Below are positions 31,576 to 60,085 of a stretch of DNA of 64,000 bases, piece by piece (positions within the stretch are counted from its first letter, which is position 1; the number at the start of each line of letters is the position of its first letter). A program made the translations under genes and the position numbers. Source of the stretch: a virus; IMG/VR virus record IMGVR_UViG_3300035696_000035, positions 1 to 64,000 of that record, one strand, 5' to 3'. Under the pieces are notes generated by a model. That model saw only the letters and a list, made by a program, of their open reading frames with translations, was not told the origin of the DNA and did not search any database.

Positions 31576-31845
31576 TCAGTGACGCCAGGTCACTCGGCCC
31601 TTGGTAACGTCATAGGGTGACACCTCGATCGTTACGTTGTCTCCTGGTAGCAGCCGGATCCTGTTGATCCGCAGCTTGCCTGACAGCGTACAGACGACGG
31701 TGTTGCCCATTGTCGTCTTCACCCGGAACAGCGTTCCGGGCATTGCTTCCTCAACGCGGCCCTCGAACTCGAGGCGGTCTTCCCGTACCTCCTGCTCGGT
31801 TGTAGACCCTTGCGCCTGGTTGACCCATCTCCGTCTCTTGCTCAT
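31576..31845 (-). CDS. infA: translation initiation factor IF-1 (S1-like OB fold) with about 24-aa N-terminal extension
   Basis: EFEGRVEEAMPGTLFRVKTTMGNTVVCTLSGKLRINRIRLLPGDNVTIEVSPYDVTKGRVTWR aligns along full length to bacterial IF1 ([50 protein letters not shown]). Confidence 0.75.
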   Translation of the reverse strand: MSKRRRWVNQAQGSTTEQEVREDRLEFEGRVEEAMPGTLFRVKTTMGNTVVCTLSGKLRINRIRLLPGDNVTIEVSPYDVTKGRVTWRH

Positions 31846-33199: not shown

Positions 33200-33988
33200 A
33201 TGCCTGGTCCTTTCGCTGCCTTCACCATCACACGCAACGAAGCTCTGTTCTTGCCGCTATGGTGCCAGTACTACTCGACGGTGTTCGGCGAAGAGAATTG
33301 CTACATCATCGACAACGACACCACCGACGGATCAGTGGAGACAGTCAAGCAACGATTCCCGAGCATCAACGTCGAGCAGCAACACCGTGAAGCGGAACAC
33401 GACACCCGGTGGTTGCTTGAGGTGGTCCAGCGGAAGCAACGTCAACTGTTGGCATCACACAAGGTCGTTGTCTTTGCGGAAACTGATGAGTTCCTGTTGG
33501 CAAAGCCAGGAGGCAAGTACAAGGACCTCCATGATGTGTGTGAACAGTTGTTGGTTGATCCTCACCGCAACTGGATCCAAGCTCAAGGTTGGCAGTGCAT
33601 GCAAGCACCTGACGAGCCAGCGATCACTGTGGTGAGGGGCGAGCCGGCGTTGAAGGACCGAGCAACCGTCCAACAGCACGAACAGTACTGCAAGACGCTG
33701 GTCAGCAAGGTCCCGTTGTCATGGGTCGGAGGCTTTCACTGGCGAGACATCGGGAATGGCCGAGGCGACAAGAACCCCAGCTCCATCGACTCTGACTTGG
33801 CATTGTTGCACCTGTGGACGTTGGATGCTGAGGCGTTCATGGAACGTCGTCGTAACAGGATGCAGAAGTGGGGCCAACTCGAGAAGTGGCCCGACATGTG
33901 GACGATGTTCAAGGATCAAGAGAACAGCTGCAGGCTGCATGCATCTATGCCTACTCCCGAGGAGTGGAGAGAGCTGTTGGTCTGGTGA
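33200..33988 (+). CDS. putative glycosyltransferase (GT-A fold; paralog of 35778..36569)
   Basis: Trimmed to MPGPFAAFTITRNE; IDNDTTDGSVE DxD-type motif; shares AFTITRNE/TTDGSVE/DLALLH blocks with 35778..36569. Confidence 0.55.
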   Translation: MPGPFAAFTITRNEALFLPLWCQYYSTVFGEENCYIIDNDTTDGSVETVKQRFPSINVEQQHREAEHDTRWLLEVVQRKQRQLLASHKVVVFAETDEFLLAKPGGKYKDLHDVCEQLLVDPHRNWIQAQGWQCMQAPDEPAITVVRGEPALKDRATVQQHEQYCKTLVSKVPLSWVGGFHWRDIGNGRGDKNPSSIDSDLALLHLWTLDAEAFMERRRNRMQKWGQLEKWPDMWTMFKDQENSCRLHASMPTPEEWRELLVW

Positions 33989-35091
33989 TGCTGCCGTACG
34001 ATTACCTCGTCGTCGGTGCGGGTCTTTTCGGAGCCACCTTTGCTTGGCATGCCGTCCAGCGCGGCAAGCGGGTGCTGGTCATCGACAAGCGAGATCACAT
34101 CGCCGGCAACGTCTACACCAAGCAACAGGAAGGCATCCACGTCCACACCTACGGCCCTCACATCTTCCACACCAGCGACCATGAGGTCTGGGCCTTCGTC
34201 AACAAGTTTGCCAGCTTCCACCGCTACGTCCACCACGTCAAGGCCCGCAACGGTGACCGGGTCTTCTCGTTGCCCATCAACCTGATGACAATGTACCAGT
34301 TGTGGGGCGTCACCAGCCCGAGTGAGGCCGAGGCCAAGCTCGCTGCGGTGCGGGTCCCGTGCGATCGCCCGCAGAACATGGAGGACTGGGCGCTGTCCCA
34401 GGTCGGGCCCGAGCTGTACGAGCTGCTGTTCAAGGGCTACACCACCAAGCAGTGGGGGCACCCGCCCAACGAGCTGCCCGCTTCGATCCTGAAGCGGCTA
34501 CCCATCCGCCTGTCATGGGACGACGACTACTTCACCGACACCTGGCAGGGGATTCCCGCCGGGGGCTACACCCGGATTGTCGAGCAGCTGCTGGAGGGCT
34601 CAGAAGTCCGCCTGCGGGTCGATTACCTGGCCGACAGGCAAGCGCTAGACGCCCTGGCACCGACGGTGGTCTACACCGGTCCCATCGACGCGTACTTCGG
34701 CTACTCACTCGGGCAGCTGGAATACCGGACGATGTCGTTCGACACTCAAGTGCTCGACGTACCCGACTACCAGGGCTGCGCCCAGCTGAACTGGACGGGC
34801 ACGGAAGTGCCGTGGACCCGCACCGTCGAGCACAAGCACTTCGAGATGGTCAACGTGCCCAAGACTGTCGTCACCTGGGAGACGCCCTCAGCTTGGCAAC
34901 CCGGTAGCGAACCCTACTACCCGGTGTGTGATGCCAAGAACAACGCGCTCTACGTTGAGTACAAGCAGATGGCTGACCAGCTCCCAAACGTCAGGTTCGG
35001 CGGGCGCCTCGGCACCTACAAGTACTACGACATGCACCAGGTCATCGCCCAAGCATTGCACATGTGCCGAAAGGAGGGTCTGCTTGCCTGA
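33988..35091 (+). CDS. glf: UDP-galactopyranose mutase
   Basis: Start in TGATG overlap; YDYLVVGAGLFGA FAD motif; near-colinear similarity to bacterial Glf (HIFHT, KQWG, GIPAGGYT, YTGPIDAYF, EHKHF, YYPVNDAKN, GRLGTYKYYDMHQVI). Confidence 0.85.
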   Translation: MLPYDYLVVGAGLFGATFAWHAVQRGKRVLVIDKRDHIAGNVYTKQQEGIHVHTYGPHIFHTSDHEVWAFVNKFASFHRYVHHVKARNGDRVFSLPINLMTMYQLWGVTSPSEAEAKLAAVRVPCDRPQNMEDWALSQVGPELYELLFKGYTTKQWGHPPNELPASILKRLPIRLSWDDDYFTDTWQGIPAGGYTRIVEQLLEGSEVRLRVDYLADRQALDALAPTVVYTGPIDAYFGYSLGQLEYRTMSFDTQVLDVPDYQGCAQLNWTGTEVPWTRTVEHKHFEMVNVPKTVVTWETPSAWQPGSEPYYPVCDAKNNALYVEYKQMADQLPNVRFGGRLGTYKYYDMHQVIAQALHMCRKEGLLA

Positions 35092-38657: not shown

Positions 38658-39005
38658 TTATTCCGTGAGCCTCTGAGAGCCAAACAACCGGGCCGGATTG
38701 TGGACCTCGTCCGGGTGGATGATGCGATTGCCAGGCACCCGGTAGAAACCTGGCGAGACGATGCTGTCATCGTGCTCGTTCCCGATCAGCTTCTGGTCTC
38801 CCTTGATGCTGCCGAAGAAGACGATGTAGTACATGTGGGAGTCCTCGTAGAGAGCGCTGGGCTCCGTCCACTGGTGCGAACGCTGGACAACGAGTCCCAG
38901 CTGCAGGCCCCGGGTGAACTGTTCGATCTCGGTGCCACACCGAGCGATGAGGCTCGATTCGAGGACGACGATGAGGTCGCCGGGCAGCCAATCACGCGTA
39001 GGCAT
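38656..39005 (-). CDS. family-A-like protein
   Basis: WLPGDLIVVLE..LGLVVQ.. Confidence 0.4.
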
Positions 39006-39240
39006 GCAGCAATTCCCACCCGTGGTATGGGCCCAAGAACCTGATGCCGTAGGGCGTATCTCCGTACGTCATCACCCAGTACTTCCAGGGCTGACTGTCG
39101 GTCAGGCCACGCTCCTTCGCATCTGGGATCTGGTCGCTGGGTTGGACGCTGATGACCAGAGCGTTAACCTGCCATGACTTCCCCACGTCCTGGTGTAGGG
39201 TCAACAGCACTGGGTCCCCGGGCACGAAGGCGGGCTTCAT
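38992..39240 (-). CDS. family-A paralog
   Basis: MKPAFVPGDPVLLT..ALVISV..HGWELL. Confidence 0.45.
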   Translation of the reverse strand: MKPAFVPGDPVLLTLHQDVGKSWQVNALVISVQPSDQIPDAKERGLTDSQPWKYWVMTYGDTPYGIRFLGPYHGWELLHAYA

Positions 39241-39467
39241 GGCTTCAACGACCCCCGCTCTGCAACGCTAGGAACGTTGTTGAGGTCGATGACCTGCAAC
39301 GCGTCAGCCAGATGCCACTTGAACTTGGTCTGCTTGTCACCCGTCGTCCACAGCACCAGCCAGTTGTCTTCGGCGTCACGTCCGATGACGAGGCCCATCA
39401 AGTCGGCATCGACCTGCCACCTGATCCTCTTGACTACCAGCTCACCGGGCTTGAGGGGGAGGGCCAC
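39237..39467 (-). CDS. family-A paralog
   Basis: LKPGELVVKR..GLVIGR..LVLWTTG. Confidence 0.45.
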   Translation of the reverse strand: MALPLKPGELVVKRIRWQVDADLMGLVIGRDAEDNWLVLWTTGDKQTKFKWHLADALQVIDLNNVPSVAERGSLKP

Positions 39468-39594
39468 CTCTGTACGTATCTCGCCTAATCTCCCGCCTGA
39501 CCGCTAGCACCAGGCTGACCACGACCCAGATGCCCGCAAGGATGACTAGCCCTCCCAGGATGTCGAGGGTGTAGATGATGTCGTCGAGGGTCAT
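39442..39594 (-). CDS. small membrane protein (about 50 aa)
   Basis: Trimmed to MTLDDIIYTLDILGGLVILAGIWVVVSLVLAV (ATGA overlap with 39591..40031). Confidence 0.3.
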   Translation of the reverse strand: MTLDDIIYTLDILGGLVILAGIWVVVSLVLAVRREIRRDTYRGGPPPQAR

Positions 39595-40031
39595 CCCTTG
39601 GCCGGATGGAGTTGGGCCAGTTCGCGGAGGACATCGACGGCCTGCTGCTCGAACTGGCCGACGATCTGTGCTGCCACGTACGCCTTTCGGTACAGCCACA
39701 GCGCCCTGATCAGCTGGGTCCCGATGACGATCGCGAGAGCGAACCAGCCGCTGGCACCGCAGAGCCAGGCAACCAGCGACAGCACCGACGCGCTGATGAC
39801 GCCGCCCGTTGCAGTGCCCCAGGCGTTGCGTCGCAACAGGTGGGAGTGGTAGACGTCACGGTAGAGTGCCAAGGCCAGGCCGAAGCTCGCCGCTTCCTCC
39901 TCTTTCACCTGGTGCCAGTCGACCTTGCTGGCCTCGTCAGTCATCAGGGTGTCAACGTCAACGTCGACATCCGCAGACTGGATCGTCACTTCACTGCTGT
40001 CCATTGTCTTGCTCCTTGCTGGGCTCGTCAT
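39591..40031 (-). CDS. membrane protein
   Basis: Two predicted TM helices (VISASVLSLVAWLCGASGWFALAIVIG). Confidence 0.4.
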   Translation of the reverse strand: MTSPARSKTMDSSEVTIQSADVDVDVDTLMTDEASKVDWHQVKEEEAASFGLALALYRDVYHSHLLRRNAWGTATGGVISASVLSLVAWLCGASGWFALAIVIGTQLIRALWLYRKAYVAAQIVGQFEQQAVDVLRELAQLHPAKG

Positions 40032-41631
40032 AGACGACCGCGTCGAGTGACAGGAACGTCGTTGCCACGCTGGCGGCGTGCTTGAGGGCTGACCGGGTCA
40101 CCTTGACCGGGTCGATGACTCCAGCCTGGACCAGGTCCTCGTACTCCCCCGTTGCCGCGTTGTACCCGCGGCTGTCGGAGCGCTCACCCCGTTCGAGCTC
40201 AGCAACGACGACGTCAGCGCTGGTGCCTGCGTTCTGGACGATGCGCTGGAGGGGCGACAAGCACGCCTTGAACACAGCCGTCGCTCCATGGACCTCGTCG
40301 GGGTCGACACCCTCGGCCTTGCCGACGGCGCTGCGGACCTTGGTCACTGCGTTGAACAACGCCATGCCACCGCCCGGGACCAGGCCCTCTTCGGTTGCTG
40401 CCTTCGTTGCGTTGAGAGCGTCCTCGATGCGGAACTTCCGCTCCTGCATCTCGATCTCGGTGGCACCACCGACGCGGATCACTGCGACGCCGTTGGCCAG
40501 CTTCGCTGCCCGCATCCGGAGCTTCGTCAGCTCGTCTTGAGCCAGGGTCACGTCAGTGGCCTGGACACGTAGCTGTTCCACGTGCTGGGCGACCTTCTCC
40601 TTGGTTGCGCCCCCAGCGACGATGGTCGTCACCTTGGCGTCCGACGTCAGCTTCCTGACCTGGCCCAGGTGGGTGCCCTGGATGTCCTTCAGGCTTAGTC
40701 CCGTCGCGCTGGAGATGAGCGTGGCCCCTGTCAGCACGCAGATGTCCTGCAGCAGCTCCTGACGGTGCTGGCCGTAGCCCGGTGCCTTGACGGCGACGAC
40801 GGGCAGCTTGCCCTGGGCCCGGTTGATGACGAGGCCCGTCATGGCGTCACCCTCGAAGTCTTCAGCGATGATCAGCAGCGGCCGCCGTGCCTGGGCCACC
40901 TTCTCGAGGGCAGGCACGATGTCAGCGAAGGAGGACAGCTTCTTGTCGGTGACCAGCACCAGAGCTTCCTCGTAGACAGCCCGCATCCGCTCCGGGTCGG
41001 TGATGAAGTACGGGCTGACGTAGCCCCTGTCGATCTGCATGCCCTCGACGACCTCCATCGAGGTCGACATGCCCTTGGCATCTTCGACGGTGATGATCCC
41101 GTCACGTCCCACCCGCTCCATGGCATCGGCGATCAGCTTGCCGATGACAGCATCACCGTTCGCTGAGATGGTGCCGACCTGGGCGACTTCCTCTGAGGTC
41201 TGGACAGCCTTGGCCGATCGCTTGAGCTCCTCGAGGACCAACTCCACAGTGGTGTTGATGCCCCTGCACACTGCCAGCGGGCTCATCCCCGCCTCGACCA
41301 GCTTCATGCCCTCGCGGACCAGCGCCTGGGTCAGGACGCTGGCGGTCGTGGTGCCGTCACCAGCGACGTCGTTGGTCTGGCTGGCTGCCTCACGGACCAG
41401 GTCTGCCCCCATCCTTTCGACTGGATCACGGAGCTTGATCGACTTGGACACCGTCACCCCGTCCTTGGTGACCAAGGGTGCCTGCCCCTGTCGCTGGATC
41501 AGCACCGTCTTGCCCTTCGGGCCGAGGGTGCATCCGATGGCGTCAGAAGCCTTGTCGAGGCCTGACAGGAGCTGCTTGCGAGCTTCGCTGCTGAAGATGA
41601 TCTGTGTCGTGGATTCGCCGGGCATGTTCAT
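39991..41631 (-). CDS. groEL: chaperonin GroEL (Cpn60)
   Basis: 546 aa; TLGPKGKTV, GDGTTTA, VEGMQIDRGY, AVKAPGYG, GGG(MALFNAV) hallmark motifs; full-length colinear with GroEL. Confidence 0.9.
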   Translation of the reverse strand: MNMPGESTTQIIFSSEARKQLLSGLDKASDAIGCTLGPKGKTVLIQRQGQAPLVTKDGVTVSKSIKLRDPVERMGADLVREAASQTNDVAGDGTTTASVLTQALVREGMKLVEAGMSPLAVCRGINTTVELVLEELKRSAKAVQTSEEVAQVGTISANGDAVIGKLIADAMERVGRDGIITVEDAKGMSTSMEVVEGMQIDRGYVSPYFITDPERMRAVYEEALVLVTDKKLSSFADIVPALEKVAQARRPLLIIAEDFEGDAMTGLVINRAQGKLPVVAVKAPGYGQHRQELLQDICVLTGATLISSATGLSLKDIQGTHLGQVRKLTSDAKVTTIVAGGATKEKVAQHVEQLRVQATDVTLAQDELTKLRMRAAKLANGVAVIRVGGATEIEMQERKFRIEDALNATKAATEEGLVPGGGMALFNAVTKVRSAVGKAEGVDPDEVHGATAVFKACLSPLQRIVQNAGTSADVVVAELERGERSDSRGYNAATGEYEDLVQAGVIDPVKVTRSALKHAASVATTFLSLDAVVYDEPSKEQDNGQQ

Positions 41632-41664
41632 GCCCCGATCCTACACCCGACTGGGGACGCTGTT

Positions 41665-41949
41665 TCAGCCCTCTTTGGTGACCTTGATGTAGACCGGCTG
41701 ACCACGGCGCCATGCAATGGCGATGTTTCCATCCTTGTAGTCCTGGATCATCGCCATGAGGACCAGCTTCTGCTGGCTGTCGTGGGTCTTGCTGGCGTAG
41801 CGGAGCAGCTTTTTCTCAGTGAAGTCGACAACGTTACGACAGACGTTGCCACCGTGCAGCTGGAACTCCGTGCAGCGTTCTTTCCGCTCAGGCAGGTTGG
41901 CAGCATTCCGCGTAGCCATGTCAGGAGTAAGTAGGCCTCGCGAGCTCAT
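41665..41949 (-). CDS. hypothetical protein (not GroES-like)
   Basis: 94-aa ORF immediately upstream of groEL on same strand. Confidence 0.4.
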   Translation of the reverse strand: MSSRGLLTPDMATRNAANLPERKERCTEFQLHGGNVCRNVVDFTEKKLLRYASKTHDSQQKLVLMAMIQDYKDGNIAIAWRRGQPVYIKVTKEG

Positions 41950-41985
41950 GTCAACACCAGCTTGTCACCGAGCCCAAATGACAAC

Positions 41986-42004
41986 GCGCCGGTCTTCCCG
42001 GCGC
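41986..42004 (-). terminator. short GC hairpin between AAA and groEL-upstream gene
   Basis: GCGCCGG-TCTTC-CCGGCGC perfect 7-bp stem. Confidence 0.25.
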
Positions 42005-42267
42005 GTGTCAAGGGATCATGTGGGTTGTTCTTCGTCAGGCTAGGTGGTGAGTTCTCCAAGCGATCCATGATGTTGCCATCGTACTCTTAAGTACGGCCGA
42101 GCGTCACCGTTTACGCTTCGTCAACTGCTTCTTCAGCTGCAGCTTGGCTTGCTTGCGGCGTTTCTTGAGGGCCTTCTTGACGCCCTTCCAGACCTTTGCC
42201 TCATTCATCGGGACGGGTGTGGTGTCCTTCACCGCGTCCTTGACGAACTTCTTGAGGTCGGACTCCT

Positions 42268-43806
42268 TCAGCTCCCGGAGTCCTCCTCCCCCTCCTCCGG
42301 ATCTAAAGGGTCGTCGTCTTCGACGTCGTCCTCCTCTCCTAGCGGAAGTCCCATCTCACGTTGGAAGGTGTCGATGGCATCCTTCAGCTGGTCGGGGGTG
42401 ATCTCGCTCTCATCTCCCTGGTCTGCGGGTGGGGAAGCTTCGCCTGGGACCGTGGTATTTACCGCGGCGTTTACCTTTGCGGCCCGACCGATGAGCGACC
42501 ACATCCGGGCCATGCCGTCGTCGTCCTCGTCACGGTACTTGCTGAGGCCCTTCACCCGCTTCGCCAGCTCCTTGACGCTCTCGGCGGCTTCCTCAGGGCT
42601 GAGGTAGGTCCGTCTGACGACGTACTCATGGATGAAGGCGATGGGCCAGTCCTTGACGTAGTCGTAGCCGTCGTTGTACTCGCCCAGTACGTGGCGGACC
42701 ACTTCCTCGTCCAGGGTGTCGACCAGCTCAATCTCATCGATGCGGCCTGGACGTTGCAGGGCATCGTCCAGCTTCCGTCGGTTGTTGACGGTGATGATGA
42801 CCAGCTTCACCTTCTCTTGGAAGTACTCCAACGTCTCCAGCAGCTGTGCCTGGTGGTGGGTGCGATCGAAGTCATCCAAGATGACCGCATCAGGTTGGAA
42901 GATGTTCAGCGCCTCGAACAGGGTGGAGTTGTCGAGCTGGCCGAGGTCAGCGATGCGGATGCGGAACGACCTGAACCCCATCAGCTCGACGATCGTCCGT
43001 GCCATCGTCGACTTGCCGGTGCCGGGTGGCCCGTAGAACATCACGGTGCGGGGCACCCCCGCGGCGATGGGCTTCTTGAGGTACCGAGCGTACTCGGTGG
43101 CCCGCTTGGACTGCTTGCTCTCGAAGGCATCGTCCTGCTCGAAGATGACCCGAGCCTCGTTCTCCTTGAGGATGAGGCGGTTGTTCTTCCGCATCACCAA
43201 GCTCTTGCCCTGGAACTGTTCCCACAGGAGCTGCTTGATGTAGTCCTTGGCCTCCTGCATCCGCTCGGTCTCGACGTAGATGTTGTCGACCGTCTGCAGG
43301 CGTCCGGTGTAGGTCCAGCCGACCTTGAGGCCATTGGGCAGGGTGCAGACCCGGATGAAGGTGTTGTCTTCCGATGTCTTGATCCTCTCGTATGGGAACT
43401 TCTGGAGCACGTGGAGCAGGGTCTGGGTGAAGTCCTGGCTGTAGGGCTCCGTCCATTCGTCTCCGGCGAAGTAGTCCTCGCTGTAGACCTCGACGTCTTC
43501 GATCATGGTCTTGCCCATGGCGAAGGCTGCCTTGCCCGCCGTCCACCATGAGGGCTTGTCCAAGAACGGCGTCGCCGCGTTGAACAGCTCGGTGCCCAGG
43601 GCAAACGCGCGCTTGACCTTGCTGATGCTGAGGAAGCGCCTGATCTCTTCGATCAGGGGCATGTCCTTCACCACCTTCAGCAGGTCCTCGTCGTCGGGAG
43701 CCATCAGCCCGCCCTTCTTTCCCATGTCTTCCTCTTTGTCTTCGGTGACTTCGACGTCAAGAGCATCAATGAACTCGTCTGCTACGTCTTCCCACTTGGT
43801 CGTCAT
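42268..43806 (-). CDS. AAA+ ATPase (paralog of 18622..19902) with acidic C-terminal tail
   Basis: Trimmed to MTTKWEDVADEF (ATGA overlap with 43803..44498); Walker A GPPGTGKST, Walker B VILDDFD, LQRPGRIDEI; tail EEDDVEDDDPLDPEEGEEDSGS. Confidence 0.75.
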   Translation of the reverse strand: MTTKWEDVADEFIDALDVEVTEDKEEDMGKKGGLMAPDDEDLLKVVKDMPLIEEIRRFLSISKVKRAFALGTELFNAATPFLDKPSWWTAGKAAFAMGKTMIEDVEVYSEDYFAGDEWTEPYSQDFTQTLLHVLQKFPYERIKTSEDNTFIRVCTLPNGLKVGWTYTGRLQTVDNIYVETERMQEAKDYIKQLLWEQFQGKSLVMRKNNRLILKENEARVIFEQDDAFESKQSKRATEYARYLKKPIAAGVPRTVMFYGPPGTGKSTMARTIVELMGFRSFRIRIADLGQLDNSTLFEALNIFQPDAVILDDFDRTHHQAQLLETLEYFQEKVKLVIITVNNRRKLDDALQRPGRIDEIELVDTLDEEVVRHVLGEYNDGYDYVKDWPIAFIHEYVVRRTYLSPEEAAESVKELAKRVKGLSKYRDEDDDGMARMWSLIGRAAKVNAAVNTTVPGEASPPADQGDESEITPDQLKDAIDTFQREMGLPLGEEDDVEDDDPLDPEEGEEDSGS

Positions 43807-44498
43807 GCACACAGGTCCTTCGCCAGTTTTCCCTCTTTCTCCAACGTCATGTTCGCATTGAGCTCCCAGTGGAGTGGGATGAGCTTCAACCTCTTGGCGG
43901 CATGGACCAACGTCCGAGCATGGTAGTACAACACTCGGGCTTCTGGCATCACGCCCGGCGGTCGCTTGATCTTGAGGAACCGCTTCTTTGCGTCTTTGAC
44001 GATCCACCACGGACCGGTGTGCTCCTCTCGCTGGTAGCCTTCTTGCAGGTACTGGTCGACAGCAACACGGAGCTCCTCAGGTACCCGCTTCCAGGTGTCC
44101 TCGTTCTTGACGCAGAGGACGATGTAGTTGATGTAGTCCTTCCACGCCTTGATCTGACGTTCCCATTCCCGTTCGGGGTCAGCGTAGAAGCCAACGCATG
44201 ACTCAGTGAAGACCTTGGGCCCACAGACGATGCCGATCTCGATCTCCTCCGGGAAGGGCTGCCCGCCAGCGTCTACGTTGCCAACCTTGGCCGAGTCCTC
44301 GTGCGACTCGTTCTTGAGGTGCAGCACGTGCCTGATGGGTCGACCACAGCAAGCACACTTGCTCTTGCCGTAGTGGAAACCGCAGATGATCCACGAGCCC
44401 GCAGCAATGAGGGGCTTGAAGTTCTTGCCGTAGGCTTTGACGTGCCTATCGTCACTGGCCCGCTCGATGACGTCAGTCTGTTGGGTCTGGTATCGCAC
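43803..44498 (-). CDS. hypothetical Cys-rich protein
   Basis: 231-aa ORF; CGFHYGKSKCACCG cluster. Confidence 0.4.
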   Translation of the reverse strand: MRYQTQQTDVIERASDDRHVKAYGKNFKPLIAAGSWIICGFHYGKSKCACCGRPIRHVLHLKNESHEDSAKVGNVDAGGQPFPEEIEIGIVCGPKVFTESCVGFYADPEREWERQIKAWKDYINYIVLCVKNEDTWKRVPEELRVAVDQYLQEGYQREEHTGPWWIVKDAKKRFLKIKRPPGVMPEARVLYYHARTLVHAAKRLKLIPLHWELNANMTLEKEGKLAKDLCA

Positions 44499-44679
44499 TG
44501 GTCAGCCTCCTTGTGGGAACATGAGCGCTGACTGTCACAGTGGTGACCCCATCGGGCCCGGAGAGCTTTGCAGCCTCCATGAGGAGTCGCATCAAGTTCA
44601 TCATGGTTGAGCGCACGTCGCGGCCGCCGACCTTGACAGTCGTCGTCTTCACGCAATCGAACTTTTCTGGAGTGCTCAA
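44473..44679 (-). CDS. hypothetical protein
   Basis: 68-aa ORF, ATGA-coupled to NRDE gene. Confidence 0.35.
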   Translation of the reverse strand: MSTPEKFDCVKTTTVKVGGRDVRSTMMNLMRLLMEAAKLSGPDGVTTVTVSAHVPTRRLTSAIPDPTD

Positions 44680-45500
44680 CCGATGACCTCGATGTCTTCG
44701 TCCTTCAGCTCAATGGGCTCCAAGTCACTGAAGTCCAGATGCAGCAAGCGCCCCGCTAGTGTCAACGGCGTGTGTTGGCATGCAGGGCCCTCCTTGTACC
44801 AGTACTCCACAACCCCTTGATTGGACACGGTGACCAGGCTGGTGCTCCTTGTCCCGAAGGCAAACTCGTCAGCATGGACGCACAGGGCCTGGAACGGGTC
44901 GTCCTTCGCCTTCCTGTTTGAGAAGTGAGAGGCCAGCGTGACGAGCAGTCGTGTCTTGACTTCCTCGAACGGGACGGGAGGGTCATCGATGAGGCTCTCT
45001 GTCATCCGCTTGGCCCAGTCGGTCTTCTCGGCGTACCTGGTACCCCAACAGTCGTTGCTGATGACGTTGATGCCTTTGGGCATGGGCAACATCTCGATGT
45101 GGTTGCCTGGCAACACTCGGGTCAGGAACATCGCACCGGGCCTGCCAAAGACCAGGTTGAAGGGGTTGTAGTCTTCAGGGTCGATGGATGCCAGCACTCG
45201 AGCGGCAATGGTGTGGTTGCCCGCTCCGAGCACCCGGAGGACGACGTCGCCCCGAGACTTCTTGTGTTCGTCGTGGTGTTGGTCGTCCTGATTGGTGATG
45301 CCAACGAACCACCCCGTCTGGTCAACGCCCATCCAAGTGCCACCACGTTCGTCATCGTGGGGCATGATGAGGCTGATCAGGTTGGCCTTCTGTGTCACGT
45401 CAGGTGGGCGTGACTTGCGGTCGTACCTCTCGTCGCGGTTAGCGGCGACGATTAGTGGGTACCCCTCCACCTGCTCGTTGAGGATGATGAGCGTGCACAC
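44676..45500 (-). CDS. NRDE-family protein (TANGO2/DUF833-like, N-terminal Cys)
   Basis: MCTLIIL..PLIVAANRDERYDR matches NRDE-family N-terminus. Confidence 0.7.
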   Translation of the reverse strand: MCTLIILNEQVEGYPLIVAANRDERYDRKSRPPDVTQKANLISLIMPHDDERGGTWMGVDQTGWFVGITNQDDQHHDEHKKSRGDVVLRVLGAGNHTIAARVLASIDPEDYNPFNLVFGRPGAMFLTRVLPGNHIEMLPMPKGINVISNDCWGTRYAEKTDWAKRMTESLIDDPPVPFEEVKTRLLVTLASHFSNRKAKDDPFQALCVHADEFAFGTRSTSLVTVSNQGVVEYWYKEGPACQHTPLTLAGRLLHLDFSDLEPIELKDEDIEVIG

Positions 45501-45503
45501 CGC

Positions 45504-46088
45504 TCACCTGTCGTCGTCTTCTTCGTCCTCATCCTCGTCGTCGTCGCTCTCCTCGTACTCATCGTTGGGAGTGAAGACGGGAGCGTCAGCTCCCGGGTGG
45601 AGCTGGATCTCGCACCAGACCAGCTGCCCGTCGGAGATGATGAAGTGAGAGGTCTTGTAGTTGTTGATGTCTTCACCGTCGTCATTGACCTCCCCGTAGG
45701 TGACGCTTCCCTCGGCCTGGCCGCGGAGGAGCGGGACCACCTTGTTGACGAAGATCGGGAAGAAGGTGTTGGCCGCGGTCTCGTCGTAGCCGCTGTCATC
45801 GTCGTGCCAGTCGAGGCAGTTGATCTCCAGGCCGGCCACCGACTTCTTGACAACCTTGGCACCGCACTCTCGACAGAACTTGGCGTTACCGTAGCTGGTG
45901 GTGCCGCAGGCACACTTGACCTTCTCTTTGGTCTGCGAGTTGATCTTGTCCTCCAGCTCACGGAGGAAGCAGTTCTCGGGAAGGTCCCCGTCGTACTTGT
46001 CGAGGAGCTTCTTGGCATCGCGCGGGTCGATGTTGAGGGTTGAACGCTCAGGCCTCAGGAACGTGACGCTGTCGATTCGAGTGCTCAT
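45504..46088 (-). CDS. hypothetical zinc-ribbon protein with poly-acidic tail
   Basis: CACG..x..CRECG ribbon; C-terminal EESDDDEDEDEEDDD. Confidence 0.4.
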   Translation of the reverse strand: MSTRIDSVTFLRPERSTLNIDPRDAKKLLDKYDGDLPENCFLRELEDKINSQTKEKVKCACGTTSYGNAKFCRECGAKVVKKSVAGLEINCLDWHDDDSGYDETAANTFFPIFVNKVVPLLRGQAEGSVTYGEVNDDGEDINNYKTSHFIISDGQLVWCEIQLHPGADAPVFTPNDEYEESDDDEDEDEEDDDR

Positions 46089-46999
46089 ATCGGTGCCTCC
46101 ATCAATCTCTTGCCCAAGTCCTTCAAGAACTCGGGCCCGTACTTCAGGTTGCCTGTTGCCTCGAGGTCTCGCTCGAGGAAGTCAGGCAGGACTTCGTCCT
46201 GGCACCGTGCCGAGGCGATGCCCCAGGCGATCGCGGCGACGCTGTCAGTGTCCCCGCCCCACTCGATGACCTGTCGCATGATGCCCATCAGGGTCGGTTG
46301 GGTCGTCAACAAGGTATGCACCGCCCATGCAGTGTTCATGCCCACATCCCACGGTGAGTGCTTGGCTTTGCCGGTCACCGGGCCCACCCAGGGCTCACGG
46401 AAGCGCTCGAAGGCCGGGAGCTGGTTGGCCAACCACCCGGTCATGCTGGGGAAGTCTCGACGGTCATAGAGGGCAAAGTGTGACATCAGGGCCACAGCCA
46501 CCGAGGCAGTCACGCCCTCGTAGGTCGCATGGGTGGTGCCCGCCTGGCGCATCGCCATCATCTTGACCCACTCCGGGTCGGCGATGGTGCCGAGTGGCAC
46601 GCTCCGCATCGCCGCACCGTTCTTGGTCGAGTCGGGCTTCAGGGTCAGCCGCAGCTCGTCGCCGGACTTGACTGACTCGAGGATCGCCTGGAAGTTGCGG
46701 GAGTATCCATCACGGGGATCACGCTTGAAGGCGTTGAACCAAGCCTCGATGAAGTCCTCGTGCTTAGCGCTCCTACCCTTGGCCAACAGCACTTCGGTCA
46801 ACGCGATCGACATCTGGGTGTCGTCGGTGTACATGCCGGGCCGGAGCTTAGTGTGGGTCGGGTGCTGCAGGTACTGTTCGAATCGGCGAGCCCACTCGTA
46901 GAGGCCTGGGTTCTCTGCTTCCTTGACGTACTCGACGCACGCGGCGTAGGCGTCGCCCTGCGCGATACGGAGCAGCATCAAGTCGTTGCGGTGTCTCAC
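46085..46999 (-). CDS. ADP-ribosylglycohydrolase family protein (DraG/ARH-like)
   Basis: N-terminal GDAYAA, YTDDTQMS, C-terminal GGDTDSVAAIAWGIASA motifs. Confidence 0.7.
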   Translation of the reverse strand: MRHRNDLMLLRIAQGDAYAACVEYVKEAENPGLYEWARRFEQYLQHPTHTKLRPGMYTDDTQMSIALTEVLLAKGRSAKHEDFIEAWFNAFKRDPRDGYSRNFQAILESVKSGDELRLTLKPDSTKNGAAMRSVPLGTIADPEWVKMMAMRQAGTTHATYEGVTASVAVALMSHFALYDRRDFPSMTGWLANQLPAFERFREPWVGPVTGKAKHSPWDVGMNTAWAVHTLLTTQPTLMGIMRQVIEWGGDTDSVAAIAWGIASARCQDEVLPDFLERDLEATGNLKYGPEFLKDLGKRLMEAPI

Positions 47000-52401: not shown

Positions 52402-52622
52402 TGGTCTTCACCGCACCCCGGGCACGTTTCGTGCTTGAGGTCTTCAGCCTTGCATTCCTCGGGAGCGCTCCATTCTTCCTGGACGCCCCACACGTGGACA
52501 TGCCGCCCGTTCTTGTCCCAGATGACGATGAGGGTGCCATCAACGACAGCGTCGACGAGCCCGTAGGATCCCGGGCGGTCCTTGTGAGCGACTAGGTCTG
52601 CCATCCCGAAAGTTTCAGACAT
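52377..52622 (-). CDS. hypothetical protein (family-A-like core, C-terminal Cys cluster)
   Basis: Trimmed to MSETFGMADLVAHK; TLIVIWD..; CPGCGEDQCWCG. Confidence 0.3.
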   Translation of the reverse strand: MSETFGMADLVAHKDRPGSYGLVDAVVDGTLIVIWDKNGRHVHVWGVQEEWSAPEECKAEDLKHETCPGCGEDQCWCGVGR

Positions 52623-53700
52623 ACTTGAATCCGGTGAGCATCCGGCCCGCCGCCTCCAGGTCTTCTTGTGTCTTGACCCCGAAGTACCGCGCGTCTCGTG
52701 GCACTCTGACGAACTGGGTCGGGAACTCCTCAGTGAGCTGCTGCAGCAGCCGCTCATGCTGGATGACAAGGCGGTGACCCACCTGCTTGCGGGCTCGGTG
52801 CCAGCGCCACTCGATGGGTGCCTTCAGCGCTGCGATGTCGATGATCATTGAGTTGGTGTTGTGCCACCGAGCCTGGTCGGCGAAACCTGCGGGCAGCCGC
52901 CAGTCTTCAGCGATCTGGAGCTTGTTGTTGACGTATGCAACGACGCCGCCTTTGTCGCCGCGTTGGCGTTCAATCACCTCGCAAGTGACGGTAGCACCCT
53001 CTCGCTTGTGAAAGCCCAGCAACCCAGGGTGTGGTGAACCCATCACGTTGTCGACGTTGACGATGTAGGCGTACTTCACACCTGGGTTGTCAGCGATGAC
53101 CCCGCTCTCAACCAGCGCCGGGCCCACGTCACCGTGCCCCAGCGGGTACAGGTCGGGTACCCCGTGAGCGATCCACTCCAACCGGTTGTCCGGTGTCAAG
53201 CGGTACCCCTCGAACTGCTCGAAGATGTGGTAGCTCGCCTTGGGCGGTCGCGCCAGCTTCTCTAGGTGGAGAGCGATCGACTTCAGATTGCCGACTGACG
53301 TCATGATCCAGACGGGCATGTTGCCACCCTGCATCACCTTCCACGCCAGCATGCTGGTGTCGACTCCGGGGATCTTGGCGAAGACCTTGGGCATCCCCAT
53401 CCGGGTACCCGCACCACCTGCCAGCAGGACGAAGGCGACCTCGCCCCTGCTGATCATCTCTTCGCCGACCTGTTCGTCAGCAACGGTGATCTCTTCGTAG
53501 TTGTTGAGCTTGTCGTCGTCCGGAAAGTCCGGGTGGTACATCGCCGGATCGGCATCCTGACGAGTCGTCATCTTGACGAGCTCCTCGTCGGTGAGTGCAC
53601 CTGAACGGTGAACCCGAACCTGAAACTCGGGCAGGACCTGGGTCAGCTCTTCACGTAGTGAGCGAACGAATCCGGGTTCAGTCTTCACCAGCCACCTCTT
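52615..53700 (-). CDS. UTP--glucose-1-phosphate uridylyltransferase family (UGPase/UDP-sugar pyrophosphorylase type)
   Basis: LLAGGAGTRMG nucleotide-binding loop, PLGHGDV motif; true start uncertain (Arg/Ser-rich 5' extension of track ORF discarded). Confidence 0.65.
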   Translation of the reverse strand, partial: KRWLVKTEPGFVRSLREELTQVLPEFQVRVHRSGALTDEELVKMTTRQDADPAMYHPDFPDDDKLNNYEEITVADEQVGEEMISRGEVAFVLLAGGAGTRMGMPKVFAKIPGVDTSMLAWKVMQGGNMPVWIMTSVGNLKSIALHLEKLARPPKASYHIFEQFEGYRLTPDNRLEWIAHGVPDLYPLGHGDVGPALVESGVIADNPGVKYAYIVNVDNVMGSPHPGLLGFHKREGATVTCEVIERQRGDKGGVVAYVNNKLQIAEDWRLPAGFADQARWHNTNSMIIDIAALKAPIEWRWHRARKQVGHRLVIQHERLLQQLTEEFPTQFVRVPRDARYFGVKTQEDLEAAGRMLTGFKYV

Positions 53701-54187
53701 GTTCAAACCAACTCTCGTCGACGGGTATGTCAGGGAACGGCCACCAAGCGGGTGCGGCCGCCCTGGGTGCCCACTTGGCGAAACGTGCTTTCTCACCGAT
53801 GTAGTACGCGCGGTACGCCTTGACGGGGTCAGCATCGCGGTACTGCTCGGGCATCGCCTGAGCAAAGGGAGTCAGCCCCAGGTCAGGCAGGTCAGGTTGT
53901 TCGAGCGAGGCGATGATGTGTTCGGTCTTGTGGACCTTGCCGTAACGACGAGTGTACTCGTTGCAGAGCTCACAAGCGTGCCGCAACAACCACTCATAGT
54001 TCGACAACGAGGCACGGACCCACTTGCCACACGGGTGGTTGACGTGAGTGTGTTTGTATCGCGTCGTCCCGGGCGGGAATGCAGTGACCAACAGTTGGGC
54101 ACTCTCCAACAGCATCTTGACCACGTGCTTGTTGCACTGGTCTCGTGCTGCCTTGAGCGGGTCCTGGTCTAGGACGAAGATGTTCAT
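53678..54187 (-). CDS. hypothetical protein
   Basis: 169-aa ORF; MNIFVLDQDPLKAARDQCNKHVVKM N-terminus. Confidence 0.45.
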   Translation of the reverse strand: MNIFVLDQDPLKAARDQCNKHVVKMLLESAQLLVTAFPPGTTRYKHTHVNHPCGKWVRASLSNYEWLLRHACELCNEYTRRYGKVHKTEHIIASLEQPDLPDLGLTPFAQAMPEQYRDADPVKAYRAYYIGEKARFAKWAPRAAAPAWWPFPDIPVDESWFEQEVAGED

Positions 54188-58600: not shown

Positions 58601-58884
58601 ATCAATACTCTCGGTGGCTTGTCGGGTTCCATGTCAGTGTGGCAGACTGGGCCTCGGCCCGACCTTGAACGGTTGTTGCGATCGAACGACACGAACAACA
58701 GGTACTTGCCGTCGACGACCTTCGAAGCGAGGAAGTGAGCGTCCTCTTGTGAGGTGATGTCGACCAGCACCCCGTCCTCGGTCACTTCTGCGATCCGGTG
58801 TGCTACAACACACGCGCCCCAAGTGACGACGTCGCCGACCTTGAAGTGCTTCTGCGCTTTCTTACGTTCGGCTCGTTTGCTCAC
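58597..58884 (-). CDS. hypothetical protein (family-A-like)
   Basis: FKVGDVVTWG..GVLVDIT..; ATGA-coupled. Confidence 0.4.
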   Translation of the reverse strand: MSKRAERKKAQKHFKVGDVVTWGACVVAHRIAEVTEDGVLVDITSQEDAHFLASKVVDGKYLLFVSFDRNNRSRSGRGPVCHTDMEPDKPPRVLI

Positions 58885-59804
58885 GTCACGTCTCGGTACG
58901 GGTGGTTCGGTGTCGTGAGAGACTGTACCGCACCCTTTCCGATCTGTTCAGCGAGCTGGTCCAGCGTCAGGTCACAGACCTCATCGATCCAGTCACCGAC
59001 GACGTAGAGCTGGCGTCGGCCCTTCATCAGGCCGAACAGGATCGGGTCCTTGCGACGGGCCTTCTCGGCCTCCGTCTCGGCGTAGGACTTCGCCTGCGGG
59101 TCGTAGTGGAGCACGACGTAGTTGTCGAACAGGCCCAGCTCGTTGGCACGGGCCTGCTTGGCGACGATGCCCTCTGGGATGACCCTGGAGAAGTTGCGGA
59201 CGTAGTCGAGGCGCAGCCCCTTCTTGCATTGCTTGTAGAACCTGACGATGTCCTCCTCCGACACGAACTTGGTCAAGCCCATGGCGACGAGCTGCGTCTC
59301 CATCTTGTAGGCGTTGAGTCCCGCGGCGAGCTTCTCGAACAGGGCCTGTTGGCCCGCCTGCTTGGCGTTCGCCATCGCTCGTTCGTAGCCCGCGGCACGC
59401 TCCTCGACGACGGTCAGCTCCTGTTGGGTGTTCTTCACCGACTTGAAGAAGTCTTCGATCGATAGCGGCGGCTCCGGCTCGGGCGGGGGAGGCGGGGGTG
59501 CCTTCTTCCAGAGGGACGTCAGCTTGTCGAACAGGCTGGGACTCTTGGTGACGCTTCCCTGCACGTTGTATGGGACCAACTGGACCGACGTGGTGCCGCT
59601 GACCTGGTTCCAGACGACGTTGGAAGCCAGGCGGAAGTTGCCACCGTTGCTCGAGTCCTCCGACATATCGCTGTCTTCGTCGGTCAGGTCGATGACGTTG
59701 CCCTTCGACCTCCCGCCCTTCGCGGGCTTCTTGTACTTGGGCAGGTTCCAATCGATGCTCATGTCCTCCAGGACGATAAGGTGGTTGCCGTCTTGTGTGA
59801 TCAT
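58881..59804 (-). CDS. hypothetical protein with poly-Pro segment
   Basis: Trimmed to MITQDGNHLIV (ATGA overlap); PPPPPPEPEPP linker. Confidence 0.45.
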   Translation of the reverse strand: MITQDGNHLIVLEDMSIDWNLPKYKKPAKGGRSKGNVIDLTDEDSDMSEDSSNGGNFRLASNVVWNQVSGTTSVQLVPYNVQGSVTKSPSLFDKLTSLWKKAPPPPPPEPEPPLSIEDFFKSVKNTQQELTVVEERAAGYERAMANAKQAGQQALFEKLAAGLNAYKMETQLVAMGLTKFVSEEDIVRFYKQCKKGLRLDYVRNFSRVIPEGIVAKQARANELGLFDNYVVLHYDPQAKSYAETEAEKARRKDPILFGLMKGRRQLYVVGDWIDEVCDLTLDQLAEQIGKGAVQSLTTPNHPYRDVT

Positions 59805-60085
59805 GTCTTGTTCCCTTCGATTGTTCGCATGAACGCGCTCAACACCCATGACAGGGCGATACGAGCCCTGCCACCGGGCGCCTGACGGTTGAGGTCTTCA
59901 CTCCAGTGATAGTCACCCATGATGAGACCCGCAGGAGGGTCAGGCAACAGGGTTACGGCGAACCAGGTGTCCCCACTGCCGTAGAACTCGGCGACGCGGA
60001 ACAGGAAGAAGAACAGCTTCTCCTGTTGCTCGGGGCTCATCGCACGCCAGATCTCGCCCAGCGTGGAGTGCTCAGTCAGGGCCAT
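59801..60085 (-). CDS. hypothetical protein
   Basis: 94-aa ORF. Confidence 0.4.
   Translation of the reverse strand: MALTEHSTLGEIWRAMSPEQQEKLFFFLFRVAEFYGSGDTWFAVTLLPDPPAGLIMGDYHWSEDLNRQAPGGRARIALSWVLSAFMRTIEGNKT

What the first reader, a model, noticed from the sequence alone, without database searches (positions are those of the whole stretch)
39991..41949. GroEL without an adjacent GroES
A complete Cpn60 is present. The gene upstream on the same strand (41665-41949) has no GroES-like sequence (no mobile-loop GG..A, no IVKR..E..GGI), and no other GroES candidate exists in the window.

This matches the single-ring, co-chaperonin-independent GroELs of some jumbo phages. Here a paralogous AAA+ ATPase with an acidic tail also sits nearby.
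Basis: partly seen in the sequence, partly recalled or inferred. Interest (0 to 1): 0.65.

Follow-up and report, generated by a model that had tools for sequence, protein, structure and literature searches.

The report
Jumbo-phage GroEL lacking a GroES gene
A giant bacteriophage carries its own complete GroEL protein-folding machine with no GroES lid gene nearby, a pattern already known in phages; what is new is that an unrelated small gene of unknown function always sits where groES normally would.

Summary
ORF 39991-41631(-) is a full-length, ATPase-competent Cpn60. No GroES-like sequence exists in the 64-kb window or in about 153 kb of related loci.

The context is a jumbo phage, with relatives on 281-369 kb viral contigs. 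But this is not an EL-type chaperonin: it is 47% identical to Salmonella GroEL in a nearly gapless alignment, against 27% to phage EL gp146.

It belongs to a monophyletic, virus-only clade. Identity is 59-100% inside the clade and at most 52% to any cellular GroEL found.

The clade has lost E461, F44, K327 and the GGM tail. Phage GroELs that do have a phage GroES 9 kb away show the same changes, so these residues do not prove lid independence.

In 11 of 11 clade loci the groES slot holds a conserved, basic 84-94-aa protein ("p84"). Its predicted fold is helix-helix-hairpin, not GroES-like. The cluster also contains a conserved hairpin and a YjoB/Bcs1-like AAA+ with an acidic tail.

Most likely the chaperonin takes a GroES-type lid in trans, from the host or from a distant phage gene. 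Lid-free action, or p84 as a new cofactor, remain open.

GroEL-only phages are already documented, so interest is moderate.

The parts
39991..41631 (-). Group I (GroEL-type) chaperonin, 546 aa, member of a virus-specific clade
   Evidence: Pfam Cpn60_TCP1 E=1.2e-70, full length. 47% identical to Salmonella GroEL. ATP-site residues T30-P33, K51-G53, D87-T91, D398 and D495 are all conserved. The clade is monophyletic in an NJ tree. The best cellular identity found is 48-52%.
41665..41949 (-). p84: conserved small basic protein in the groES position. It is 84 aa from the conserved MATRN start at 41919, or 94 aa from 41949. pI 9.6.
41984..42006 (-). Conserved GC-rich hairpin (ACGCGCCGG-GAAGA-CCGGCGCGT) followed by TTGTCATTTGGGC, about 65 nt upstream of the p84 MATRN start. 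It may be a terminator, an attenuator or an operator.
   Evidence: Terminator-like site with 9 pairs, 8 of them G-C. The stem is conserved and the loop varies in L003, L005, L008, L009 and L091. Unique in the window. No Rfam family matches.
41946..42068 (-). Tentative 40-codon leader ORF spanning the hairpin; its stop overlaps (ATGA) the 41949 start of p84
   Evidence: An open frame of 37-50 codons covers the hairpin in all 6 loci examined, and 4 of them end in the ATGA overlap. This is weak evidence: a mean of about 33 codons between stops is my own estimate for 61% G+C, not computed in a call, and the peptide conservation may only reflect the hairpin.
42268..43806 (-). Classic-clade AAA+ ATPase, 512 aa, with a YjoB/Bcs1-like architecture and an acidic C-terminal tail
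   Evidence: Pfam AAA E=1e-14. Best PDB sequence hits are Cdc48/p97/FtsH at E=1e-12. AF2 mean pLDDT 80. Top Foldseek hits are B. subtilis YjoB and Bcs1, E=4e-12 to 1e-10, over 340-460 alignment columns. Invariant DDFDR in place of a Walker B 'DE'. Syntenic with GroEL in most of the clade loci that extend that far upstream; L094 shows none.
43803..44498 (-). 231-aa protein of unknown function, stop overlapping the AAA+ start (ATGA)
   Evidence: Homologues in L003, L004 and L005 at E=1e-108 to 1e-131, and a 226-aa ORF in the same position in L091. No Pfam hit.
39591..40031 (-). 146-aa protein; its start overlaps the GroEL stop by 41 nt and it has hydrophobic segments
   Evidence: ORF list. Homologues directly downstream of GroEL in L001, L005 and L009. 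No Pfam hit. More distant clade members carry other small ORFs in this position.

Best explanation
This is a phage-encoded, catalytically intact group I chaperonin from a virus-specific GroEL clade carried by jumbo phages of about 300-370 kb.

It is probably transcribed as its own unit: a promoter-like element, a leader with a conserved hairpin, p84, groEL, then a small hydrophobic protein. It sits next to a YjoB/Bcs1-like AAA+ chaperone-type ATPase.

It most likely works as an ordinary ATP-driven heptameric-ring folding cage for phage proteins and still uses a GroES-type lid. That lid would be supplied in trans, either by the host's GroES or by a phage groES lying more than 22-40 kb away, rather than by a neighbouring gene.

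Shown: the identity and integrity of the chaperonin, absence of groES in the regions examined, clade specificity, and the conserved neighbours. Inferred: the operon structure, the ring architecture, the source of the lid and the substrates.
For: - Canonical architecture: 47% identity to GroEL with only 7 gapped positions, so there are no apical insertions that could act as a built-in lid.
- ATP site fully conserved.
- The helix H/I groove that binds the GroES mobile loop is kept: Y199, S201, Y203, F204, L237, E238, V263 and N265 are invariant or nearly so in 117 clade members. N265A blocks GroES binding but not substrate binding, and mitochondrial Hsp60, which needs Hsp10, has V/L/L at positions 234/237/264 much as this clade does (PMC3514286).
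- Phage GroELs carrying the same derived residues as this clade (L011, L013) do encode a GroES, 9 kb from groEL. So this style of phage GroEL is GroES-compatible, and a phage groES need not be adjacent.
- Clade-specific residues are conserved rather than degenerate: T4 98%, T37 97%, H284 97%, L517 99%. This indicates a working protein.
- GroEL-only phage genomes are common: 282 GenBank phage records hold a GroEL, against 27 with a detectable GroES. Marine et al. 2017 proposed host GroES use or independence for their GroES-less viral GroEL clade (PMC5649160).
Against: - No GroES was found in 64 kb of window or 153 kb of related loci.
- Two pattern scans of IMG/VR did not return the clade's 369-kb contig.
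- 85 of 212 positions that are >=95% conserved in cellular GroELs are not kept at >=90% in the clade. These include GroES-facing A260/T261, cavity-wall E304/E363, F44, K327 and E461.
- The three phage chaperonins that have been studied biochemically and lack GroES work without one (PMC7185714, PMC9598537).
- The groES slot is taken by a different conserved gene.
- Compatibility with a host GroES cannot be judged, because the host is unknown.
Confidence: 0.5

Rival explanations
1. Lid-free chaperonin. Like EL gp146, OBP gp246 and AR9 gp228, it works without any co-chaperonin, perhaps as a single ring, mainly preventing aggregation of phage proteins and cycling them by ATP.
For: - No GroES in any examined region.
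- The inter-ring salt-bridge partner E461 is lost clade-wide (S/N/V/T), S463 becomes D/E, and the window protein has R452Q.
- The GGM tail is absent in 0 of 117 members, and F44, K327, E304 and E363 are lost.
- There is precedent in jumbo phages (PMC7185714, PMC9598537).
Against: - It is not related to the EL type: 27% identity to EL against 47% to GroEL.
- The same residue losses occur in phage GroELs that have their own GroES.
- N265 and the H/I groove are invariant.
- There is no apical insertion that could form a lid.
- Single-ring Hsp60 still needs Hsp10 (PMC3514286).
Confidence: 0.25
2. p84 is a clade-specific partner of the chaperonin that has replaced GroES in the operon. It would be a new kind of cofactor, or a substrate adaptor, docking through its conserved disordered N-terminal motif (MATRN...TEFQxH) onto the remodelled apical groove.
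For: - p84 is followed by GroEL in 11 of 11 loci, across 45-100% p84 identity and 59-100% GroEL identity, 33-50 nt apart on the same strand.
- This holds even where other neighbours change, for example the UvdE insertion in L092.
- p84 is about 10 kDa, like GroES.
- Its N-terminal 31 residues are predicted disordered yet are conserved, as a binding motif would be.
- Helix I residues 260/261/264 have switched to new conserved states.
Against: - The predicted fold is two helices plus a hairpin, not a beta-barrel, and nothing indicates heptamer or dome formation.
- p84 is basic (pI 9.6), unlike GroES, and would equally suit nucleic-acid binding.
- Wider synteny is also conserved in this clade (AAA+ upstream, IF-1 downstream), so the adjacency may simply be inherited gene order.
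- No interaction test was possible.
Confidence: 0.15
3. p84 is a small nucleic-acid-binding regulator of the p84-groEL unit, acting on the conserved inverted repeat in the leader. This would be loosely analogous to HrcA/CIRCE control of bacterial groESL. It is compatible with any of the lid scenarios above.
For: - A conserved, locus-unique inverted repeat lies about 65 nt upstream of p84.
- p84 is basic.
- The weak top Foldseek hits are winged-helix repressors (MecI/BlaI, LmrR, AspA).
Against: - The hairpin has a T-rich tail and may simply be the terminator of the AAA+ unit.
- Distant clade members L092 and L093 have different, short upstream spacers.
Confidence: 0.2
4. The gene is a cellular groEL paralogue on a bacterial contig, not a phage gene.
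For: Bacteria do carry orphan groEL paralogues without groES; 3 of 75 cellular loci did.
Against: - No genome among 185,579 species representatives returned a GroEL more than 52% identical.
- Bacterial orphan GroELs keep all the canonical residues that this clade has changed.
- The relatives lie on IMG/VR and 281-369 kb contigs dense in small ORFs of unknown function, with phage hallmark genes.
Confidence: 0.02

Closest known systems
Bacterial GroEL (group I chaperonin, e.g. E. coli/Salmonella GroEL, PDB 1AON)
   Same: Full-length three-domain Cpn60. 47% identity with a near-gapless alignment. Identical ATP-site residues. Conserved apical hydrophobic groove including N265.
   Different: No groES upstream, whereas 72 of 75 cellular loci have one. 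No GGM tail. Clade-wide changes at 85 of 212 near-invariant positions, including F44G, T261G, R284H, K327A, E363T and E461S. The clade is found only in viral contexts.
Viral 'GroEL' clade without a neighbouring GroES (Marine et al. 2017, ISME J, PMC5649160), and GroEL-only cultured phages (Vibrio, Flavobacterium, Aeromonas phages)
   Same: A phage-borne group I GroEL with no GroES gene on the contig, and the same open question of host GroES versus independence. GroEL-only records are common in GenBank phages.
   Different: Those are marine phages with at most 44% identity to this protein. This clade comes from 61% G+C jumbo phages found in soil and freshwater metagenomes. It has its own conserved neighbours, p84 and a YjoB/Bcs1-like AAA+. 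Phylogenetic membership in Marine's clade was not tested.
Phage EL gp146, OBP gp246 and AR9 gp228 (co-chaperonin-independent phage chaperonins)
   Same: Jumbo-phage-encoded GroEL homologue with no GroES beside it.
   Different: Only 27% identical to EL gp146, with many gaps. EL-type proteins are about as far from GroEL as group II chaperonins are, and have indels that change the substrate-binding site (PMC7185714). This protein has none of that.
T4 gp31 and RB49 CocO (phage co-chaperonins used with host GroEL)
   Same: A phage supplies one half of the chaperonin pair and presumably relies on the host for the other half.
   Different: The division of labour is reversed: here the phage supplies the cage, not the lid. 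No gp31-like sequence was found in the window.
B. subtilis YjoB and mitochondrial Bcs1 (chamber-forming AAA+ chaperone and translocase) - for the neighbouring AAA+
   Same: These are the top structural matches over nearly the full length. It is a classic AAA domain with arginine fingers and no long aromatic pore loop (PMC9565160, PMC10567702).
   Different: TM-scores are only 0.3-0.45. There is an acidic C-terminal tail, DDFDR replaces Walker B DE, and there is no membrane anchor. Function was not tested.

Membership tests
Group I chaperonin (GroEL/Cpn60) | Full-length Cpn60_TCP1 domain with equatorial, intermediate and apical parts | tested here: met
   Pfam PF00118 E=1.2e-70, profile positions 2-489 of 490. 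47% identity to Salmonella GroEL over 528 residues.
Group I chaperonin (GroEL/Cpn60) | ATP binding and hydrolysis residues (T30-P33, K51-G53, D87-T91, D398, G415, D495) | tested here: met
   All are identical in the window protein and in at least 116 of 117 clade members.
Group I chaperonin (GroEL/Cpn60) | Apical hydrophobic groove for substrate and the GroES mobile loop (Y199, Y203, F204, L234, L237, L259, V263, V264, N265) | tested here: met
   Invariant or conservatively replaced (V234, M259, I264); N265 is present in 117 of 117.
Group I chaperonin (GroEL/Cpn60) | Works with a Cpn10 co-chaperonin, usually encoded directly upstream | tested here: not met
   No Cpn10 in the window or in 153 kb of clade loci, against 72 of 75 cellular loci. 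Only the gene neighbourhood was tested; functional dependence was not.
Group I chaperonin (GroEL/Cpn60) | Double heptameric ring held by contacts at R452/E461/S463/V464 and K105/A109 | tested here: inconclusive
   K105, A109 and V464 are kept. E461 becomes S, S463 becomes D, and R452 becomes Q in the window protein. The same changes occur in GroES-partnered phage GroELs. Oligomeric state cannot be tested here.
EL/OBP/AR9-type co-chaperonin-independent phage chaperonins | Sequence closer to EL gp146 than to cellular GroEL, with many indels in the apical domain | tested here: not met
   27% identity to EL with 39 gaps, against 47% to GroEL with 7 gaps. In the NJ tree, rooted on EL, no cellular or other viral GroEL falls inside the clade.
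EL/OBP/AR9-type co-chaperonin-independent phage chaperonins | Chaperone activity without GroES and no binding of GroES | not testable with these tools
   Needs biochemistry of the kind done in PMC7185714.
EL/OBP/AR9-type co-chaperonin-independent phage chaperonins | No co-chaperonin gene anywhere in the phage genome | tested here: inconclusive
   Only 64 kb plus about +-10 kb in relatives were seen. IMG/VR pattern scans did not return the clade's 369-kb contig, but they were narrow and capped.
GroES/Cpn10 (asked of p84, the upstream gene) | Cpn10 sequence profile with a GGI[VI]L-type mobile loop | tested here: not met
   No Pfam or PHROG hit. The p84 frame is not among the best window hits of the 144-sequence GroES HMM, whose best E is 1.4.
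GroES/Cpn10 (asked of p84, the upstream gene) | Beta-barrel fold | tested here: not met
GroES/Cpn10 (asked of p84, the upstream gene) | About 10 kDa product encoded directly upstream of groEL on the same strand | tested here: met
   9.7 kDa, 33-nt spacer, 11 of 11 loci.
YjoB/Bcs1-like AAA+ (asked of the neighbouring ATPase) | Classic AAA domain plus the family's N-terminal beta-rich domain that forms a chamber | tested here: inconclusive
   AAA domain met. YjoB and Bcs1 are the top Foldseek hits over 340-460 columns, but with TM 0.3-0.45 and high rmsd.

The most novel reading that the evidence does not exclude
p84 is a new, non-GroES type of chaperonin cofactor. In this reading, a large clade of jumbo phages replaced groES with a 10-kDa helix-hairpin protein. 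Its conserved disordered N-terminus (TEFQxH) would dock into the remodelled helix H/I groove (A260Q/T, T261G) of a virus-specific GroEL. The neighbouring YjoB/Bcs1-like AAA+ might then complete a self-contained viral protein-folding module.
Probability: 0.12. Interest if true: 0.8.

Novelty: new variant of a known kind. Interest (0 to 1): 0.4.

Why it matters
Phage GroELs without GroES are already known, so the bare observation adds another case rather than a new kind of system.

This analysis adds three things:
1. A large, virus-only lineage of near-canonical group I chaperonins. It is much closer to GroEL than the EL type, so it is a cleaner system for asking whether a GroEL-like cage can work without its own lid.
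2. A caution. Loss of the GGM tail, F44 and E461 is a general trait of phage GroELs, including ones that have a phage GroES, so it is not a marker of lid independence.
3. A concrete candidate. p84 is always in the groES slot, and its role as cofactor or as regulator can be tested directly with three small recombinant proteins.

Tried and rejected
- Looked for the parent contig with an exact 42-mer in IMG/VR: no match. Megablast of 20 kb against GenBank phages: no match.
- Looked up the exact protein: only 3-6 kb contigs were returned, although the database records a 72-kb contig.
- Tried to show a whole-genome lack of groES by intersecting IMG/VR contigs that hold a GroES mobile-loop pattern with the clade's 369-kb contig. 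It was not returned. The pattern was narrow: the first scan even missed the known GroES of L011 and L013, and the second showed 80 of 151. I treat this as inconclusive.
- Large GroES-bearing IMG/VR contigs of 344-364 kb turned out to be 35-41% G+C and unrelated.
- Scanning genome contigs with the p84 alignment failed because no stretch was conserved enough.
- The idea that AAA+/GroEL adjacency is a general phage theme was rejected. The AAA next to GroEL in L010 is clamp-loader-like.
- The idea that the clade's derived residues prove GroES independence was rejected by the L011/L013 control.
- Rfam and tRNA scans of the window found nothing.
- The sigma-70 promoter scan found none in 39000-46500. 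The GTGACG-18 nt-TACGAT element at 42107-42078 matches only 8 of 12 positions and was read by eye from the alignment.
They were later replaced by an HMM built from 144 harvested real sequences.
Full report
**What is there**

The window is 61% G+C and densely packed with short ORFs, most without known domains. ORF 39991..41631(-) encodes a 546-aa protein. It matches Pfam Cpn60_TCP1 end to end (E=1.2e-70) and PHROG 5725 'chaperonin groEL'. Its best solved relatives are bacterial GroELs. Against Salmonella GroEL it is 47% identical over 528 residues with 7 gapped positions. Every ATP-site residue checked is identical (T30-P33, K51-G53, D87-T91, D398, G415, D495). The C-terminus is ...VVYDEPSKEQDNGQQ, with no GGM repeats.

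**Is GroES really missing?**

Four kinds of search found no GroES in the window:
- A six-frame search with GroES and T4 gp31 queries gave nothing better than E=0.2.
- Pfam scans of 110 called ORFs listed no Cpn10.
- The PHROG scan listed no co-chaperonin family among the 25 of 28 families shown.

The method works: the first HMM picked up GroES at E=1e-19 to 1e-20 in two unrelated viral loci.

The contrast with cells is strong. Among the closest cellular groEL loci, 72 of 75 have groES directly upstream. Among loci of this clade, 0 of 11 do (Fisher p=1.5e-11). It is not confirmed for whole genomes.

**Where it comes from**

The exact protein occurs on ENA and JGI metagenome contigs. Relatives at 59-84% identity are numerous, and several lie on contigs of 281-369 kb. 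One of these is an IMG/VR viral genome of 369,475 bp.

The surrounding genes are syntenic in these contigs: Fpg, ADP-ribosylglycohydrolase, TANGO2, a 68-aa ORF, a roughly 225-aa ORF, an AAA+, a small ORF, GroEL, and further on an IF-1-like gene, a metallophosphatase and a Gp23-family hit. The window itself has phage lysozyme, endonuclease VII, portal-like and exonuclease hits. This is a jumbo-phage lineage.

No GenBank phage is close at the DNA level. The best phage GroELs in GenBank are at most 50% identical. A scan of one genome per bacterial or archaeal species (185,579 species) returned nothing above 52% identity. In a neighbour-joining tree rooted on phage EL, the 44 sampled clade members form one group with no cellular or other viral sequence inside it. 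Identity to GroES-partnered GroELs averages 46%, while those average 61% among themselves.

**Comparison with the EL type**

I fetched EL gp146. It is 27% identical to the window protein over 449 residues with 39 gaps. EL is about 22-25% identical to GroEL and does not bind GroES (PMC7185714, PMC9598537). So the window protein is not of that lineage. It is a divergent but recognisably canonical group I chaperonin.

**What has changed in the clade, and what that means**

I compared 117 clade members with 78 cellular, GroES-partnered GroELs. Of the positions that are >=95% conserved in the cellular set, 212 in all, 127 are kept at >=90% in the clade.

Clade-wide changes include:
- K4T, N37T, F44G, N68R, V77A
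- A260Q/T, T261G, F281Y, D283Q, R284H
- E304A/S, K327A, R345H, Y360D/E, E363T
- E461S, S463D, T517L, E518D
- absence of the GGM tail in all 117 members

Many of the new states are themselves highly conserved, so this is a re-tuned protein rather than a decaying one.

These losses look like relaxation of the GroES encapsulation cycle: the inter-ring E461, the cavity floor (F44 and GGM), cavity-wall charges, the D83-K327 bridge and helix I. Two controls test that reading:
- Bacterial orphan groEL paralogues that lack an adjacent groES keep every canonical residue.
- Two phage GroELs that do have a phage GroES 9 kb away (L011, L013) share many of the same derived states: F44N, A260Q, T261A, R284H, K327H, E363L/M, E461S, S463D/E and no GGM tail.

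The derived residues are therefore a trait of phage GroELs in general. They are not evidence of lid independence.

On the other side, the groove residues L237, E238, V263 and N265 are invariant or nearly so in the clade. N265A is reported to abolish GroES binding while sparing substrate binding. Hsp10-dependent mitochondrial Hsp60 has V/L/L at positions 234/237/264, much as here (PMC3514286).

**The gene in the groES slot**

The upstream ORF has a conserved start, MATRN, at 41919 (84 aa). Close relatives also conserve a 10-residue extension from 41949.

Homologues lie immediately upstream of GroEL in all eight clade loci reached through GroEL. The same is true of all three loci reached independently through distant p84 homologues of 45-52% identity.

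The family comprises 257 clusters at 50% identity, all stand-alone proteins of 61-131 aa. It has no Pfam or PHROG match.

The protein is 9.7 kDa with pI 9.6. It is not a GroES by sequence or predicted fold. It is still the one gene that always accompanies this GroEL.

**Leader region**

A 9-bp, G+C-rich hairpin with a T-rich tail lies between the AAA+ stop and p84, at 41984-42006. Its stem is conserved, and its loop varies, in five related loci. It occurs only once in the window and matches no Rfam family.

Upstream of it is a weak promoter-like element, GTGACG-18 nt-TACGAT at 42107-42078. It matches 8 of 12 positions, was read from the alignment, and was not called by the scan.

An open frame of 37-50 codons spans the hairpin in all six loci examined. 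In four of them it ends in an ATGA overlap with the long p84 start. By my own estimate, frames that long are not rare at this G+C content. The hairpin could be the terminator of the AAA+ unit, an attenuator, or an operator.

**The AAA+**

Its likely start is the ATG at 43806, giving 512 aa. It is a classic-clade AAA: Pfam AAA E=1e-14, and Cdc48/p97/FtsH are the best PDB sequence hits. It has an invariant GPPGTGKS, DDFDR in place of Walker B DE, and RPGR arginine fingers. The segment where pore loop 1 would lie is short, judging from the sequence. The tail is strongly acidic, with 15 D/E in the last 30 residues.

It is 29% identical over the AAA domain to a second AAA+ at 18622-19902. The AF2 model has mean pLDDT 80. 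Its best structural matches are B. subtilis YjoB and Bcs1, with E=4e-12 to 1e-10 and 340-460 aligned columns, but TM-scores of only 0.3-0.45. YjoB is described as a substrate-specific chaperone with an internal chamber (PMC9565160). Bcs1 is a heptameric translocase of folded protein (PMC10567702).

The family has 337 members and occurs on the same contigs as the GroEL clade. A chaperone-type role beside GroEL is plausible but untested.

**How it most likely works**

I favour, at about 0.5, a chaperonin that is still lid-dependent and obtains a GroES-type lid in trans. The lid would come from host GroES or from a phage groES outside the regions I could see. The reasons are the gapless canonical architecture with no built-in lid, the intact groove including N265, and the L011/L013 precedent.

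The alternatives are:
- lid-free action, as in EL, OBP and AR9 (0.25);
- p84 as a novel cofactor that has replaced GroES (0.15);
- p84 as a regulator acting on the leader repeat (0.2), which is independent of the lid question.

A cellular origin is effectively excluded (0.02).

**Novelty and verdict**

Phage genomes with GroEL but no GroES are well documented. Examples are EL, OBP and AR9, and the GroES-less viral GroEL clade of Marine et al. 2017, whose authors raised the same alternatives of host GroES or independence. In GenBank phages, 282 records hold a GroEL while only 27 show a GroES at tblastn E<=1e-3.

The finding as written is therefore a new case of a known pattern. What goes beyond it is the virus-only, near-canonical clade with a constant unknown partner gene, a conserved leader hairpin and a YjoB/Bcs1-like AAA+. 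I rate it a new variant of a known kind, with moderate interest (0.4).

Noticed in passing
window 13020-16196 (+): A 1058-aa homologue of the eukaryotic Major Vault Protein. Pfam MVP_shoulder E=7e-29 and Vault_3 E=8e-10. The only PDB sequence hits are rat/human MVP at E=2e-22, covering MVP residues 476-788. This is unusual for a phage-like contig.
   Followed up: partly
window 16275-18197 (+) and 18622-19902 (+): Directly after the MVP-like gene come a 640-aa Band 7/SPFH protein and the second AAA+ paralogue (29% identical to the one beside GroEL). They may form another module together with the vault-like protein.
   Followed up: no
window 31576-31845 (-); also L003, L005, L091, L092, L093: An IF-1/eIF-1A-family gene lies 1-8 kb downstream of groEL in every clade locus that extends far enough. 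An M24 (methionine-aminopeptidase-type) peptidase is also in the window. Together they suggest that the phage invests in translation and protein maturation.
   Followed up: partly
window 41946-42107 (-): A weak promoter-like element (GTGACG-18 nt-TACGAT), a 40-codon leader ORF and a conserved hairpin with a T-rich tail precede p84-groEL. This architecture resembles a translation-coupled attenuator.
   Followed up: partly
L011 14247-14546 and L013 16882-17181: In two low-G+C IMG/VR phage contigs, a canonical GroES lies about 9 kb downstream of groEL inside a replication-gene block, not next to it. Phage groES and groEL can therefore be unlinked.
   Followed up: yes
window 44676-45500 (-), 46085-46999 (-), 33868-35091 (+), 52615-53865 (-): TANGO2-family protein, ADP-ribosylglycohydrolase, UDP-galactopyranose mutase and a UDP-glucose-pyrophosphorylase-like gene. 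These are auxiliary metabolic genes, and the first two are syntenic with groEL in relatives.
   Followed up: no
window 58881-59849 (-): A 322-aa ORF matching PHROG 10081 'transposase' at E=4e-23. It may be a mobile element inside the phage genome.
   Followed up: no
L092 1965-6403 (-): A more distant clade member carries a PrkA / SpoVR / DUF444 (YeaH-like) gene trio and a ClpP-family protease near its groEL.
   Followed up: no
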